A DNA stretch of 64,000 nt from Octopus vulgaris. Its lineage: Eukaryota. Location of the stretch: the NCBI GenBank assembly GCA_951406725.2, contig OX597814.1, positions 89,094,001 to 89,158,000 of the forward strand, in the 5' to 3' direction. Position numbers and translations under genes: made by a program. Numbering within the stretch: the stretch's first letter is position 1; each line of letters starts with the position of its first letter. Below are positions 45,701-47,736 of the stretch, piece after piece. The notes under the pieces were generated by a model that was not told the DNA's origin, did not search any database, and saw nothing but the letters and a program-made list of their open reading frames with translations.

Positions 45701-47736
45701 ATCAAGTTGAAAGTCAAGTAAATTGTTAAGATTAATTTTTGCTTCTGAAACTATTTCATATTGCTTCATTTTGGTATGTGCCAACACAATTTTCAGTTGG
45801 GTCAGTATATGACAGTAATACATAAAATCTATGCCATAATAAGTTCTTTTAAAAATAATTATTGATCTCTCTCTCTCTTTCTCTCTCTCTCTCTTTCTCT
45901 TTCTCTGCATGTGTGTGGCAGGTGTATGGTGTGTGAGTGTGTAGCTATATATAAAACAATAAGCATCACTCTTTTCAAGCCTGTGGTGTTTGTGTACCCC
46001 CCAGCTGGACCGGACGGCAGTCCATCGCAGCATTGCTCAAGAAACAGGAAGAGAGAGTGAGAGAAAGTTGTAGTGAAAGAGTACAACAGGGGTCGCCACC
46101 ACCCCCTGCTGGAGCCTCGTGGAGCTTTTAGGTGTTTTCACTCAATAACACACACAATGCCCGGTCTGGGAATCGAAATCATGATCCTATGACCACAAGT
46201 CTGCTGCCCTAACCACTGAGTCATTGCACCTCCAAAAAATATGGAATGCTGGTAGGATTGTCAACACAGTAGACACAATGCTTAGTGGCATTTCTTTTGG
46301 CTCTTTATGTTCTGAGTTCAAATTCTGCTGTGGTTGATTTTGCCTTTCATCCTTTCAAGGCCAATGAAATAAGTACTAGTTAAGTATTGGTATCAATGAA
46401 ATCAAATAACCCTCTCACCCAAAATGTCAGGCTCTGAGCCTATAGTTAAAATAATTATTTTATATGATGTTATAACGATTTCTACTCTGGAAATGAGCAA
46501 TATCATAGAGTATATGTGAGCACTTGATCCTTTCATTTCAAATCTGCTCTTCATTCTCTTAACTGATTGCATTGCTAATTTTTATTGGAAATGAATTTAA
46601 ACTAGAATTGCTTTCTCTCCACTCTCAAATTTAATAGGACTAAAAAAAAGAACCTATTTGTTAGAAACTGTCAATAACAAAATATGAAGCAAAAAATACA
46701 ATCTTTTACTGAGTGACTCATTTCACATTTATTTGAAATATATAGAGCATTCAACTGAGTAGCTATTTCTTGTTTTGAGGAGTTTAATGTTTTATTTCAT
46801 ATATTTATACTTACTGAGCATGTAGAATAGCTGTTAACTCTTCTAACACATTTGTATAATTTCAGGATAGTCACAATACTACCCTGCAATACTCTATCCC
46901 TAAGAACACTTCTAAGGTTGCAAATATATTTGAAGTACTGGAAAAAGGAAAGAATCTCTTTGCTATTCAAGATTATGCTGTATCACAAACAACATTAGAT
47001 ATGGTAAGTAAATTAACTTATTTAATAAATAACATTATAAATAAAAATCTTAAAAAGATATATTCTTGAAGAAATAACAATTAAAATACTTCTAAATCCA
47101 AAATGAATTAAAATAGAAGTCATACATGTCTATTGAAGATAATGAAATTAAAGTATGTCTCATCAAATATTATTAAGATCTTATAAAGAGATTGGATTGG
47201 CAGGGATCATCTGTGTATTCAACAAAATGCTTTGCAGTGTTTTTTTTATCTCTTTTCATTCCGTGTTCTAGTACTTATATTATAAATTATCAATATGCTG
47301 CCGTTTGTTGATATGGAAGCATTTATTTCCATATGAATGAGAAAACATGGTAATCCTTATAACTTTCACCAAGGTGTTTCATGGTCGGGTTCAAGAGCCT
47401 TGACAAAGGGCATTGACAGAGCTGGCATGAGTAAAATATAACAGATTACAAAACAAGCAATTTAATTTAGTTAATTCTCAAAATTTAGTTAATTGTTTGG
47501 TTTAACTTTTAATGAATAATTTTTTTTTTGTTTTTAAATCTTTTTACATGGATTGTTCATTTTGATTTTTCTAGGTCTTTCTGGGTTTTACAAAGGAGCA
47601 AACAGATGGTTTTGTTGATGAAATTGATGAGGAAGACTATCCAGCATATGCATATGACCACAAAGCTTTTAGCCTTGAACCTGAGATGTTATACAGTGAT
47701 CCAAAGCTAAAATACACCCAGACTTCTAATTTATAA
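28..47736 (+). CDS. ABCA1-like: ABC transporter subfamily A (ABCA1/4/7/12/13-type full transporter), 5'-partial; 36 exons, 1767 aa in window
   Basis: Exons 28-144, 2032-2281, 5898-6045, 6654-6839, 7745-7862, 9146-9336, 9895-10033, 10206-10410, 12944-13060, 14127-14304, 15391-15510, 16069-16152, 17668-17864, 19289-19461, 21371-21398, 22742-22953, 23536-23686, 26298-26538, 27171-27272, 27555-27800, 28929-29101, 30799-30859, 31949-32126, 32352-32467, 33588-33735, 35303-35550, 36741-36861, 37700-37768, 39073-39179, 40150-40291, 41310-41444, 43082-43185, 44462-44554, 45413-45518, 46866-47003, 47575-47736. All are AG/GT bounded and join into one open frame with two NBDs ([56 protein letters not shown]) and ABCA motifs [40 protein letters not shown]. 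Exact orthology unresolved. Confidence 0.95.
411..1330 (+). mobile_element. Decayed hAT (Charlie/SPIN-like) transposon 5' part, interrupted by a SINE
   Basis: TIR-like GGGGGGCAAACTATGGCTC near 415; BED-finger remnant ...[16 protein letters not shown] at ~1190-1236. Confidence 0.6.
671..1082 (+). mobile_element. tRNA-derived SINE with (GAGTAAAA)n tail
   Basis: TGGCCGTGTGGT...GGTTCAGTCCC; homologous copies at 42540-42962(-), 26680-27112(-), 12580-12661, 39500-39785 and ~8000-8310. Confidence 0.85.
2032..2281 (+). CDS. ABCA exon 2 (ECD1)
   Basis: tttcag|KYTETEF...[11 protein letters not shown]...EFLA|gtaaga. Confidence 0.9.
4021..4698. repeat. Long imperfect inverted repeat (~330-bp arms, 18-nt loop)
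   Basis: 4021-4351 is the reverse complement of 4370-4698. Confidence 0.93.
5104..5620 (+). mobile_element. Non-autonomous Helitron
   Basis: 5' TC, 3' hairpin CCCGAGCAACGCCGGG, 8 nt, then CTAG; inserted at A/T with no TSD; second copy at 52750-53166. Confidence 0.85.
5898..6045 (+). CDS. ABCA exon 3 (ECD1)
   Basis: ttccag|AIIFLD...RRSKR...[19 protein letters not shown]|gtaaga. Confidence 0.9.
6654..6839 (+). CDS. ABCA exon 4
   Basis: YWRPRPEDN...[14 protein letters not shown]...QFPYPC. Confidence 0.93.
7065..7298 (-). mobile_element. Short SINE (TCGACCCCGAAAGGATGAAAGGCAAAGTCAACC family)
   Basis: Homologous copies at 14590-14820(-), 18843-19068(+), 23878-24013(+), 29320-29470(-), 46251-46450(+), 49190-49400(+). 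Confidence 0.8.
7745..7862 (+). CDS. ABCA exon 5 (TM2)
   Basis: [10 protein letters not shown]...[11 protein letters not shown]|gtaagt. Confidence 0.92.
9146..9336 (+). CDS. ABCA exon 6 (TMD1)
   Basis: ALRVMGM...WLAWMIS; hydrophobic helices; AG/GT bounded. Confidence 0.92.
9895..10033 (+). CDS. ABCA exon 7 (TMD1)
   Basis: [13 protein letters not shown]...[10 protein letters not shown]. Confidence 0.92.
10206..10410 (+). CDS. ABCA exon 8 (TMD1)
   Basis: [11 protein letters not shown]...[10 protein letters not shown]...[11 protein letters not shown]. Confidence 0.93.
11025..11265 (-). mobile_element. Diverged tRNA-head SINE
   Basis: GGAGCAATGTGAAATGAACTGTTTTGCTCAAGAAC core; related copy at 37405-37650(+). 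Confidence 0.65.
12944..13060 (+). CDS. ABCA exon 9
   Basis: [17 protein letters not shown]. Confidence 0.93.
14127..14304 (+). CDS. ABCA exon 10 (NBD1 Walker A)
   Basis: [28 protein letters not shown]. Confidence 0.95.
14590..14820 (-). mobile_element. Short SINE, family of 7065-7298
   Basis: Colinear with 7065-7298. Confidence 0.8.
14940..15210 (+). mobile_element. RTE 3'-UTR fragment with (GAT)n tail
   Basis: Homologous to 54350-54660; other copies at 2950-3241, 12775-12910, 40645-40835, 24790-25020(-), 36960-37220(-), 44270-44370(-). Confidence 0.75.
15391..15510 (+). CDS. ABCA exon 11 (NBD1 Q-loop)
   Basis: NMLTGL...[12 protein letters not shown]. Confidence 0.93.
16069..16152 (+). 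CDS. ABCA exon 12
   Basis: [15 protein letters not shown]; ttacag/gtgagt. Confidence 0.9.
17220..17545 (-). mobile_element. tRNA-head SINE, same head family, no U6
   Basis: Shares head and body with the 45965-46233 copy. Confidence 0.8.
17668..17864 (+). CDS. ABCA exon 13 (NBD1 signature, Walker B)
   Basis: [15 protein letters not shown]...[22 protein letters not shown]. Confidence 0.95.
18843..19068 (+). mobile_element. Short SINE, family of 7065-7298
   Basis: Reverse complement of 7065-7298; the empty site is visible at 19940-19950. Confidence 0.82.
19289..19461 (+). CDS. ABCA exon 14 (NBD1 H-loop)
   Basis: [19 protein letters not shown]...CCGSTLFLK. Confidence 0.95.
20537..20750. mobile_element. 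Mariner-derived MITE
   Basis: TIRs TACAAGGGGTTCTGAAGAGTTCCTGGCTTT / AAAGACAGGAACTTTTCAACATCCCTTCAT. Confidence 0.7.
20781..21001. repeat. Fold-back hairpin (~100-bp arms)
   Basis: ATAGTGGGG...CAAACACTGC / GCAGTGTTTG...CCCCACTAT. Confidence 0.88.
21371..21398 (+). CDS. ABCA 28-nt microexon (exon 15)
   Basis: ttttctag|GGTTCTGCAAATTCACTTACAGCAAGTG|gtaagt; converts phase 0 to phase 1 as the flanking exons require. Confidence 0.8.
22742..22953 (+). CDS. ABCA exon 16 (regulatory domain 1)
   Basis: [15 protein letters not shown]|gtaatg. Confidence 0.93.
23536..23686 (+). CDS. ABCA exon 17
   Basis: VFLQARE...NS|gtgagt. Confidence 0.88.
24014..24296. mobile_element. Solo LTR (283 bp) inserted in a SINE
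   Basis: Termini TGTGG...CCACA; perfect 5-bp TSD CCAGT (24009-24013 and 24297-24301); GC-rich interior. Confidence 0.8.
25025..25345. repeat. Mixed (TA)/(TG)/(CA) microsatellite
   Basis: Directly visible. Confidence 0.85.
25548..26053 (-). mobile_element. tRNA-head SINE (3' partner of the U6 chimera)
   Basis: A-box TGGCCCAGTGG and B-box GGTTTCGATTC; head shared with 17220-17545 and 45965-46233; 3' half shared with 34315-34650. Confidence 0.85.
26054..26161 (-). pseudogene. U6: Full-length U6 snRNA retrocopy fused to a tRNA-SINE head
   Basis: Minus strand GTACTAGCTATGGCAGTACATATTCTAAAATTGGAACGATGCAGAGAAGATTAGCATGGCTCCTGTGCAAGGATGACATGCAAATTCGTGAAGTATTCCATATTTTTT (108 nt). ACAGAGA box altered to GCAGAGA; no recognisable PSE. 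Confidence 0.92.
26298..26538 (+). CDS. ABCA exon 18 (TM7)
   Basis: [14 protein letters not shown]...ILLPCIF...LSPALY. Confidence 0.92.
26680..27112 (-). mobile_element. Diverged SINE, family of 671-1082
   Basis: GCTATAGTAGAAGACACTTGCC and TTTTACTTGTTTC motifs. Confidence 0.7.
27171..27272 (+). CDS. ABCA exon 19 (ECD2)
   Basis: PGVGTTCM motif. Confidence 0.9.
27362..27508 (+). repeat. Tandem duplication (~65-bp units)
   Basis: CAATTACTA.AGTCA...TTACATTTTAAA...TTCATATGTTC occurs twice. Confidence 0.75.
27555..27800 (+). CDS. ABCA exon 20 (ECD2)
   Basis: [10 protein letters not shown]...GIPP...TDFLQNL...VSEYLL. Confidence 0.9.
28929..29101 (+). CDS. ABCA exon 21 (ECD2)
   Basis: RYGGWT...[16 protein letters not shown]...NAILR. 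Confidence 0.93.
29486..29630 (+). repeat. Compound microsatellite (TAA)n-(AAG/AGG)n-(AG)n
   Basis: Directly visible. Confidence 0.9.
29645..30351 (+). mobile_element. R4/Dong-type non-LTR retrotransposon 3' fragment (RLE domain), decayed
   Basis: HIVKECP...[34 protein letters not shown]...[10 protein letters not shown]; (TAA)n tail. Confidence 0.8.
30799..30859 (+). CDS. ABCA exon 22
   Basis: [11 protein letters not shown]; phases match neighbours. Confidence 0.88.
31949..32126 (+). CDS. ABCA exon 23 (TMD2)
   Basis: [16 protein letters not shown]...[18 protein letters not shown]. Confidence 0.93.
32352..32467 (+). CDS. ABCA exon 24 (TMD2)
   Basis: [10 protein letters not shown]...[13 protein letters not shown]. 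Confidence 0.9.
33588..33735 (+). CDS. ABCA exon 25 (TMD2)
   Basis: WASIPLMY...FKDPTTSY. Confidence 0.92.
33792..34016. mobile_element. piggyBac-like MITE, decayed
   Basis: TTAAACGTTTAGCATT ... AATTCTAAAGGGCTAA termini (TTAA-CCC..GGG-TTAA type). Confidence 0.55.
34315..34650 (+). mobile_element. tRNA-head SINE
   Basis: TGGTTCAGTGG...GATTCGATTCC; 3' half homologous to 25550-25735. Confidence 0.75.
35303..35550 (+). CDS. ABCA exon 26 (TMD2)
   Basis: [14 protein letters not shown]...[12 protein letters not shown]. Confidence 0.92.
36000..36665 (+). mobile_element. Mariner transposase remnant (DD34D)
   Basis: [38 protein letters not shown]; stops and frameshifts. Confidence 0.85.
36741..36861 (+). 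CDS. ABCA exon 27
   Basis: [12 protein letters not shown]...LTK. Confidence 0.92.
37700..37768 (+). CDS. ABCA exon 28
   Basis: [13 protein letters not shown]. Confidence 0.9.
39073..39179 (+). CDS. ABCA exon 29 (NBD2 Walker A)
   Basis: [21 protein letters not shown]. Confidence 0.95.
39500..39785 (+). mobile_element. SINE 3' portions, family of 671-1082
   Basis: GTGCTCCAGCATGGCTACAGTC...GAAACAAGTAAAAGA. Confidence 0.7.
40150..40291 (+). CDS. ABCA exon 30 (NBD2 Q-loop)
   Basis: [11 protein letters not shown]...LTGRELL...ARIRGIP. Confidence 0.95.
41172..41227 (-). ncRNA. Putative minimal type I hammerhead ribozyme variant (Penelope-type)
   Basis: UUUGUCA-GUGAACA-G-GUCGC(9-nt loop)GUGAC-GAA-AAUAUU-U-UGACAAA. 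Confidence 0.5.
41310..41444 (+). CDS. ABCA exon 31 (NBD2 signature)
   Basis: [26 protein letters not shown]. Confidence 0.95.
41566..42125 (-). mobile_element. CR1-clade LINE 3' end
   Basis: [21 protein letters not shown]...GH.YK...[15 protein letters not shown]; (ATT)n tail. Confidence 0.85.
42540..42962 (-). mobile_element. SINE, same family as 671-1082
   Basis: Near-colinear reverse complement of 671-1082. Confidence 0.85.
43082..43185 (+). CDS. ABCA exon 32 (Walker B/H-loop)
   Basis: [16 protein letters not shown]...SVVLTSH. Confidence 0.95.
43522..44046. mobile_element. TA-flanked MITE (Tc1/pogo-type)
   Basis: TIRs TAGTGTAAATCCTCGAGTATAATCTGC / GCGGACTATACTCGATGATTTACAGTA. Confidence 0.75.
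44462..44554 (+). CDS. ABCA exon 33
   Basis: [31 protein letters not shown]. Confidence 0.95.
45413..45518 (+). CDS. ABCA exon 34
   Basis: KFSKGYSL...ENFPGS. Confidence 0.9.
45965..46250 (-). mobile_element. tRNA-head SINE with a 17-nt U6 3'-end remnant
   Basis: Same head as 25548-26053, abutting AGCATTCCATATTTTTT (46234-46250). Confidence 0.8.
46866..47003 (+). CDS. ABCA exon 35
   Basis: [13 protein letters not shown]. Confidence 0.93.
47575..47736 (+). CDS. ABCA terminal coding exon
   Basis: VFLGFTKEQ (VFVNFA-like motif)...YTQTSNL then TAA at 47734-47736. Confidence 0.9.
   Translation, partial: VFLGFTKEQTDGFVDEIDEEDYPAYAYDHKAFSLEPEMLYSDPKLKYTQTSNL

What the first reader, a model, noticed from the sequence alone, without database searches (positions are those of the whole stretch)
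46200..46250. The same U6-SINE junction recurs 20 kb away: amplifying U6-headed family or recurrent template jump
Seen: a second copy of the SINE head is again preceded by the U6 3' end with exactly six T (AGCATTCCATATTTTTT|GGAGGTGCAATGA); the U6 part is cut off where another SINE begins at 46251. This copy has a different 3' body from the 25.5-kb copy, and a third copy (17220-17545) has no U6. Two in 64 kb suggests high genomic frequency. Inference: either (a) a composite U6-SINE master element is spreading, which must get past its internal T6 Pol III terminator, or (b) the partner RT routinely jumps or ligates from the SINE 5' end onto U6 RNA.
Basis: partly seen in the sequence, partly recalled or inferred. 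Interest (0 to 1): 0.78.

Follow-up and report, generated by a model that had tools for sequence, protein, structure and literature searches.

The report
One-off U6–SINE chimeras, one locally copied
A 17-base end of the U6 splicing RNA does sit in front of a short retrotransposon here, but this exact join occurs only twice in the genome, both in this window; the second was likely copied from its neighbour 20 kb away, while hundreds of other U6 copies are joined in many different ways to several retrotransposon families, likely by reverse-transcriptase jumps.

Summary
The junction is real: 17 nt of U6 3' end with six T at 46250-46234 (minus strand), then a tRNA-type SINE. There is no spreading U6-SINE family. 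The exact junction occurs twice in 2.8 Gb, both in this window, against 26,602 intact heads of this SINE. Three other U6 fusions to this head were found, each with a different junction and body.

At least 310 U6 3' ends exist; 73 of 88 sampled are fused to SINE heads, SINE fragments or a LINE, with 56 distinct junctions among 58, T-runs of 3-9 and U6 from three gene variants.

The local recurrence is probably not a second jump. The 46-kb SINE belongs to another subfamily yet carries the 25-kb copy's base at a diagnostic site (28 of 1,729) and shares 5 of its 6 CpG changes (P about 0.03). That points to a short local copy from the 25-kb chimera.

U6-SINE chimeras are known from platypus, lizard and opossum. 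What seems new is a mollusc (Octopus-like genome), the scale, and a C-biased untemplated linker that favours template jumping over RtcB ligation.

The parts
46234..46250 (-). 17-nt U6 3' end with six T; the last 3 nt (46248-46250) are shared with the old SINE on the plus strand
45953..46233 (-). tRNA-type SINE, subfamily A' (my label), with A/B boxes, a T-rich tail variant and a ~33-nt deletion near the tail; carries the A-type base T at head position 45; no target site duplication seen
46248..46455 (+). older SINE of another family (B, my label), 5'-truncated where the U6 piece begins; 17 of 105 non-CpG sites diverged; end coordinate approximate
26054..26161 (-). full-length U6 retrocopy plus a sixth T, derived from the U6 gene variant of the tandem cluster at G000:C1:139.42 Mb (8 differences, against 10 from the other variant); likely donor of the 46-kb junction
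25543..26053 (-). SINE of type A with a composite tail that also occurs at L035, so a subfamily and not a three-part jump
25535..25542 (.). 8-nt target site duplication, left copy; the right copy is at 26163-26170; together they frame U6 and SINE as one insertion
17205..17557 (-). ordinary A' SINE without U6 (head at 17544), with a 14-nt target site duplication (17205-17218 and 17544-17557); internal control

Best explanation
U6-SINE joins in this genome are almost all different from one another and likely arise one at a time when a LINE reverse transcriptase jumps from a SINE RNA's 5' end onto the 3' end of U6 RNA; the 46.2-kb junction is likely a short local copy of the 25-kb chimera, not a second jump or a spreading family. 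Shown: junction counts, partner diversity, linker composition, subfamily states, flanks and relative ages. Inferred step 1: the RT copies a SINE from its tail (target-primed), reaches the 5' end, adds a few untemplated bases, pairs a final A (seen as an extra T) or G (G:U wobble, seen as a C after a shorter T-run) with the terminal U of U6, and copies U6 fully or in part. This made the 25-kb insertion with its 8-nt duplication. Inferred step 2: at 46 kb a broken or newly inserting A' SINE end invaded the homologous 25-kb head 20 kb away, switched between head positions 45 and 82, copied through the junction 17 nt into U6, and rejoined the old B SINE through the 3-nt GCT microhomology. The internal T6 terminator poses no puzzle, because the chimera need never be transcribed.
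For: Against a family: exact junction 2 hits, both here, against 26,602 heads; the other U6 fusions to this head (L232, L233, L234) each have a different linker and body. For one-off events: 310 strict U6 3' ends; 58 of 88 non-redundant sampled loci join a SINE head or ~45-nt tail with 56 distinct junctions; 14 more join other SINE parts and one a LINE RT ORF. Three U6 variants are used, 25/18/12 of 55. For jumping: 33 of 58 partners start at the natural SINE 5' end, and RtcB did not ligate a 5'-triphosphate RNA (0 of 26; PMC6789731, passages). In 44 head junctions the first base after the T-run is C 22, A 20, G 2 (C against G p=3.6e-5); C is only 5 of 115 other linker bases; T-runs are shorter before C (4.45 against 5.65, p=0.003). 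R2 RT needs untemplated addition to jump (PMC8857657). For local copying: identical junction lacking the consensus G; T at head position 45 in only 28 of 1,729 copies of its subfamily; 5 of the 25-kb copy's 6 CpG changes shared (P=0.033); shared CG>CA change in U6 (A at that site in 19 of 93); none of 63 other U6-SINE junctions has U6 as short as 17 nt (read by eye; shortest about 21); P of another such chimera within 20 kb is 4e-5 to 1.4e-4.
Against: Position 82 and everything from 140 on are A'-type, so two of the five shared CpG changes (95, 125) lie beyond the inferred switch and must be coincidence or a patchy tract. One of 86 unrelated copies also shares 5 CpG changes with the 25-kb copy. 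The rate of such one-sided conversion is unknown, so the odds rest on an assumed prior. 5'-truncated U6 is common (28 of 93 start at positions 58-81), U6 5' ends abut older SINEs elsewhere (L111 inverted, L145), and two different U6 chimeras lie 17 kb apart at C4:8.76-8.78 Mb; all of this keeps an independent event possible. The C could come from the U6 RNA tail or from read-through of the B gene (T6 then C). Target site duplications are weak overall: 10 nt or more in 7 of 58 against 3.8% null, and none of 9 nt or more among 22 D-family heads. No RNA data or orthologous loci were examined.
Confidence: 0.62

Rival explanations
1. The chimeras form at the RNA level: RtcB ligates U6 (2',3'-cyclic phosphate) to SINE RNAs with a 5'-OH, and the joined RNA is then retrotransposed, as for human U6/L1. 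Linkers would be 5' leaders of cleaved read-through transcripts or heterogeneous U6 tails. This rivals the jump step only.
For: Shown for human U6/L1 (PMC6789731, passages). 25 of 58 partners are ~45-nt tails that start in a narrow zone just before the 3' hairpin, which a nuclease cut could explain. For tails, part of the linker is templated by the SINE consensus.
Against: 33 of 58 partners begin at the Pol III 5' end, expected to carry a triphosphate (established knowledge), which RtcB did not accept. The C-first bias with almost no G and the T-run about one shorter before C fit pairing at the cDNA end. Human ligated junctions are described as T4-8 joined directly to L1.
Confidence: 0.25
2. 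The 46.2-kb junction is a second, independent U6-SINE chimera whose U6 was truncated at 17 nt and joined to the old B SINE by microhomology during integration.
For: U6 truncation is frequent, with a ~21-nt case (L224). U6 5' ends meet older SINEs at L111 and L145. The SINE body is a different subfamily. Two different chimeras lie 17 kb apart on C4.
Against: Only 3 other U6 fusions to this head were found in 2.8 Gb. The same junction, the 1.6% state at position 45 and the shared CpG changes would all be coincidence.
Confidence: 0.12
3. The 17 nt are a chance resemblance made of an A-run and the decayed head of the old B SINE.
For: 3 nt belong to the B SINE, and its head could supply a few more. 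Three looser hits elsewhere proved to be target-site look-alikes.
Against: The 14-mer has at most 1.2e-7 chance per site; 0.003 expected over all 26,602 heads, and it would have to fall beside a true chimera. It does not explain T45 or the shared CpG changes.
Confidence: 0.04
4. A composite U6-SINE master element is amplifying and reads through its internal T6 terminator.
For: Two identical junctions. SINEs with snRNA heads exist in crocodilians (U1/U2; PMC4494074, passages).
Against: Both copies lie in one 20-kb stretch and have different bodies; no third copy by exact, gapped or BLAST search. The only run of identical junctions seen elsewhere has shared flanks, a tandem duplication (C1:132.42-132.53 Mb).
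Confidence: 0.02

Closest known systems
U6/LINE and U6/SINE chimeric retropseudogenes (Group IV of Doucet et al. 2015, PMC4476161; read: passages and section 10)
   Same: Intact U6 3' end with T-run fused in the same orientation to a non-LTR retroelement; often 5'-truncated U6 and short target site duplications with non-L1 partners; SINE partners known (Mon-1 in platypus, AnolisSINE2, RTESINE1).
   Different: In the section read, that survey covered vertebrates and found tens of copies per non-placental genome under strict criteria. Here it is a mollusc with at least 310 copies, mostly SINE partners, many at the natural 5' end, and a C-biased linker that the passages I read do not mention.
Human U6/L1 chimeras made by RtcB ligation (Moldovan et al. 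2019, PMC6789731; read: passages)
   Same: U6 3' end with variable T-run joined to a retroelement, each junction unique.
   Different: There the partner is 5'-truncated, needs a 5'-OH and is joined directly. Here 33 of 58 partners are full 5' ends and 40 of 44 head junctions have bases between the T-run and the core head motif, some of them the SINE's own first 1-2 nt.
[quoted passage not shown] 2022, PMC8857657; read: passages and section 10)
   Same: A jump from a template 5' end to another RNA's 3' end that needs untemplated addition; this predicts short linkers and pairing at the last base.
   Different: Shown in vitro; the authors doubt a physiological need and cite ligation for L1 chimeras. 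The partner here is an APE-type LINE; 'RTE-like' is from recalled motifs, not a call.
SINEU families with U1/U2-derived heads (Kojima 2015, PMC4494074; read: passages)
   Same: snRNA sequence at the 5' end of a SINE.
   Different: SINEU copies descend from master elements with shared junctions; here the junctions are nearly all unique.
Non-allelic gene conversion or synthesis-dependent repair between nearby repeat copies
   Same: A mosaic copy, a short templated patch from a neighbour and a microhomology at the far end.
   Different: Here the tract would run past the homologous element into 17 nt of non-homologous U6, which makes it visible.

Membership tests
U6 chimeric retropseudogene (Group IV) | U6 sequence with intact 3' end and T-run | tested here: met
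   25-kb copy: full U6; 46-kb copy: 17 nt only
U6 chimeric retropseudogene (Group IV) | Fused in the same orientation to a non-LTR retroelement with its 3' end | tested here: met
   LINE partner at L221
U6 chimeric retropseudogene (Group IV) | Target site duplication around the whole chimera | tested here: inconclusive
   8 nt at the 25-kb copy; none seen at 46 kb by eye, but only 10 of 28 ordinary A' copies show one; 4 of 9 B-head chimeras have 11-14 nt
U6 chimeric retropseudogene (Group IV) | U6 part matches a functional gene with only private changes | tested here: met
   8 differences from the C1:139.42 Mb gene variant; three variants used genome-wide
snRNA-headed SINE family (SINEU-like) | Many dispersed copies share one junction and body | tested here: not met
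   2 copies, both local, different bodies
snRNA-headed SINE family (SINEU-like) | Diagnostic snRNA changes co-segregate with a SINE subfamily | tested here: not met
   U6 variants are spread over partner families; 56 distinct junctions of 58
RtcB-ligated U6 chimeras | Partner 5'-truncated and joined directly, no added bases | tested here: not met
   33 of 58 are full heads; C-biased linkers; tails and internal fragments are truncated, so a share could still fit
RtcB-ligated U6 chimeras | Chimeric RNA exists independently of retrotransposition | not tested
   no RNA data examined
Local gene conversion or templated repair | Mosaic of donor and recipient states with a switch point | tested here: inconclusive
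   T45 is donor-type, 82 and 140 onward recipient-type; shared CpG changes P=0.033, but two lie past 82
Segmental duplication | Shared flanks and the same element | tested here: not met
   no shared unique flank beyond 17 nt; different subfamilies

The most novel reading that the evidence does not exclude
Octopus LINE reverse transcriptases routinely jump end-to-end from the triphosphate 5' ends of several Pol III SINE RNAs onto U6, clamped by an untemplated G paired to U6's last U. The hundreds to roughly a thousand fossils would be genome-scale in vivo evidence for template jumping, a route that was set aside for human U6/L1 in favour of RtcB ligation.
Probability: 0.5. Interest if true: 0.65.

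Novelty: new member of a known kind. Interest (0 to 1): 0.4.

Why it matters
The flagged recurrence itself is a small local accident and rules out a new U6-headed SINE family. The genome-wide set matters more. Whether U6 chimeras arise by RT template jumping or by RNA ligation has been shown only for human L1. A genome with hundreds of junctions at full SINE 5' ends and a measurable base bias makes the question testable in a second system, and jumps of this kind are the proposed source of new SINE heads and tails. Searches with the terms listed no report of U6 chimeras in cephalopods or other invertebrates; the library lacks most subscription journals and Repbase entries, so this is weak evidence of novelty.

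Tried and rejected
- Segmental duplication: no shared flanks, different subfamilies.
- The B SINE inserting into a full U6: no remaining U6 beyond it, and B is the older element.
- The 25-kb element as a three-part double jump: the same composite SINE occurs at L035.
- L033, L034 and L035 as further U6 chimeras: each has a 3' repeat of the flank, so they are target-site matches. L033 (8 nt) is the least certain.
- A minor subfamily explaining T45: the 27 other T45 copies are dispersed and none has U6 upstream; most keep A' states at 161/164 by eye.
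- A target site duplication linking the 46-kb element to either flank: none convincing by eye.
- ARAGORN found no tRNA in the window, so the tRNA-type label rests on visible A/B boxes.
- Earlier scan notes: nothing found.
- Junction-spanning reads and other individuals or species were not examined, so transcription and the age order of the two junctions stay open.
- No supplementary files were read; the chimera tables of PMC4476161 could show similar linkers in platypus or lizard.

Full report
Observation. The window is G000:C1:89094001-89158000 of a 2.8-Gb, 227-contig genome. A LINE protein from it is 82% identical to an Octopus bimaculoides entry, so I treat it as an Octopus genome. The elements lie near exons of an ABC transporter gene (PF00005 on 17669-17863). 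On the minus strand, 46250-46234 matches the U6 3' end with six T and runs straight into a SINE head at 46233. At 26161-26055 there is a full U6 (103.7 bits), a sixth T, the same kind of head at 26053, and an 8-nt repeat on both sides of the whole. The copy at 17544 has no U6 and a 14-nt duplication. The SINE labels A, A', B and D are mine.

Is it chance? The 14-mer RTTCCATATTTTTT occurs 678 times on both strands (reversed control 133), at most 1.2e-7 per site and 0.003 expected over all heads. Three of the 17 nt (46248-46250) also belong to the plus-strand B SINE. That SINE is far older, with 17 of 105 non-CpG sites changed, against 7 of 169 and 9 of 170 for the 46-kb and 25-kb SINEs. So it did not cut the U6 by inserting later; the U6 piece was joined to it.

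Is a U6-SINE family spreading? No. The exact junction has 2 hits in the genome, both here, while the head alone has 26,602. Gapped patterns add three hits, all with the CATATT-containing flank repeated after the tail. A BLAST with the junction (40 of 1,065 candidates scored, so a lower bound) found three more U6 fusions to this head and two to a related head, each with its own linker, and the A-head ones with different bodies.

Are U6 joins routine? Yes. A strict 24-nt U6 3' pattern has 310 hits (it also requires a non-C base 51 nt downstream, so it undercounts). I analysed 93 of the first 100 listed, leaving out six rows of a tandem U6 gene cluster and one row of a U6-U6 pair, and then dropped five copies of one tandem duplication, leaving 88. 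Of these, 58 join a SINE head or a ~45-nt SINE tail: 22 D heads, 9 B heads, 2 A-type heads and 25 tails, with 56 distinct junctions. Of the other 30, 17 hit repeats, of which I count 14 as SINE parts after removing one microsatellite, one AT-rich match and one U6-U6 case. One more joins a LINE RT ORF whose 3' end runs on into sequence like the SINE fragments. That gives 73 of 88. T-runs range from 3 to 9. U6 starts at positions 1-31 in 65 of 93 and at 58-81 in 28. Three U6 variants contribute (25, 18 and 12 of 55). The window's U6 is nearest to the variant in the cluster at C1:139.42 Mb, which has TATA-like upstream sequence. From and the share of T6 or longer (27 of 93), the total is roughly 1,000-2,000 copies; this is an inference.

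How are they joined? 33 of 58 partners begin at the natural SINE 5' end. Ordinary copies show that the consensus 5' bases are AT for D and AA for B, with no C. Among 44 head junctions in all fetched loci (a non-random set drawn from several searches), the first base after the T-run is C in 22, A in 20 and G in 2; C makes up 5 of 115 other linker bases; the T-run averages 4.45 before C and 5.65 before A. In one search, counted by eye and partly overlapping, C is first in 24 of 63 and G in none. I read this as untemplated addition followed by pairing of a final A or G with the terminal U of U6, as R2 RT requires untemplated addition to jump (PMC8857657). RtcB did not ligate a triphosphate 5' end (PMC6789731). 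The C could instead come from U6 tails or from gene read-through: the B-variant genes have C after T6, although C-first also occurs with the A and C variants. The 25 tails cluster just before the 3' hairpin, which either RT stalling or a nuclease cut would explain. I put jumping at about 70% and ligation at about 25%. Duplications are clear for B heads (4 of 9 with 11-14 nt at the tail) and absent for D heads.

Why two identical junctions 20 kb apart? Not a segmental duplication: the flanks share only the 17 nt, and the 46-kb SINE has A' states at positions 82, 140, 143, 149 and the tail. But at position 45 it has the A-type T, found in 28 of 1,729 A' copies. It shares 5 of the 25-kb copy's 6 CpG changes (P=0.033 with site-specific rates; one of 86 unrelated copies also shares 5), and a CG>CA change in U6 (A at that site in 19 of 93). 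No other U6-D junction has U6 as short as 17 nt (0 of 63; shortest about 21 nt). The chance of another U6 fusion to this head within 20 kb is 4e-5 to 1.4e-4, before asking for the same junction and T45. The simplest account is one-sided copying from the 25-kb chimera, during break repair or during insertion of the A' SINE, ending in the GCT microhomology. A switch onto an RNA from the 25-kb locus would look the same. I put local copying at about 80%, independence at 12% and chance at 4%. These odds depend on an unmeasured conversion rate, and two shared changes lie beyond position 82.

Comparison. U6 fused to SINEs is known from platypus, lizard and opossum (PMC4476161; passages and section 10). 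The 25-kb element meets the features of that group that I could test; the 46-kb piece is probably a secondary copy. It is not a SINEU-type family (PMC4494074; passages). PMC11838501 was seen as abstract and outline only. PMC9115989 (passages) reports RTE LINEs in octopus, and the term snRNA does not occur in its main text. Searches listed no cephalopod or invertebrate U6 chimera paper; one search gave nothing specific on conversion past an element's end. No supplements were read, and subscription journals and Repbase are outside the library.

Verdict. The junction is real, option (a) is refuted, and option (b) holds for the genome but probably not for this pair. It is a new member of a known kind with a useful mechanistic signature. 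Interest 0.4; up to 0.65 if jumping with a G:U clamp is confirmed.

Noticed in passing
G000:C1:139422702-139429824 (L011-L015): Tandem cluster of at least seven U6 genes of one variant, spaced 1.0-1.4 kb, with TATA-like upstream sequence; source variant of the window's U6.
   Followed up: partly
G000:C1:132423353-132529199 (L092-L095, L159, L160): Six identical U6-tail junctions about 20 kb apart with shared flanks: a tandem segmental duplication.
   Followed up: partly
L221:293-2440 (G000:C3:178508416): Truncated U6 fused inside the RT region of an APE-type LINE; its 3' untranslated part resembles the SINE fragments seen after other U6 copies, so it is a candidate partner LINE.
   Followed up: partly
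L081 (C2:23366674) and L098 (C1:187750245): Head-to-tail U6-U6 copies, possibly serial jumps.
   Followed up: no
sample: U6 5' truncations avoid positions 32-57 and cluster at 58-81, a region recalled as the internal stem-loop and U4-pairing segment; may mark where RT meets structure or the U4/U6 duplex.
   Followed up: no
sample: 25 of 58 partners are only the last ~45 nt of a SINE, starting within a few bases before the 3' hairpin, in at least four tail variants.
   Followed up: partly
L111, L145, L027: U6 5' ends abut older SINE sequence, with short overlaps; at L111 a B head is inverted against U6, as at 46.25 kb.
   Followed up: no
C3:128349331/128349497 and C4:31799537/31799700: Inverted pairs of U6 copies with shared downstream flanks, likely fold-back duplications of gene-like loci.
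   Followed up: no
window 61484-61937 and 63547-64000: 454-bp inverted repeat at 98.9% identity near the 100-N gap at 60362-60461; recent inversion or assembly artefact.
   Followed up: no
window 17669-17863: Exon of an ABC transporter gene on the plus strand (PF00005); ABCA type is my recalled reading.
   Followed up: partly
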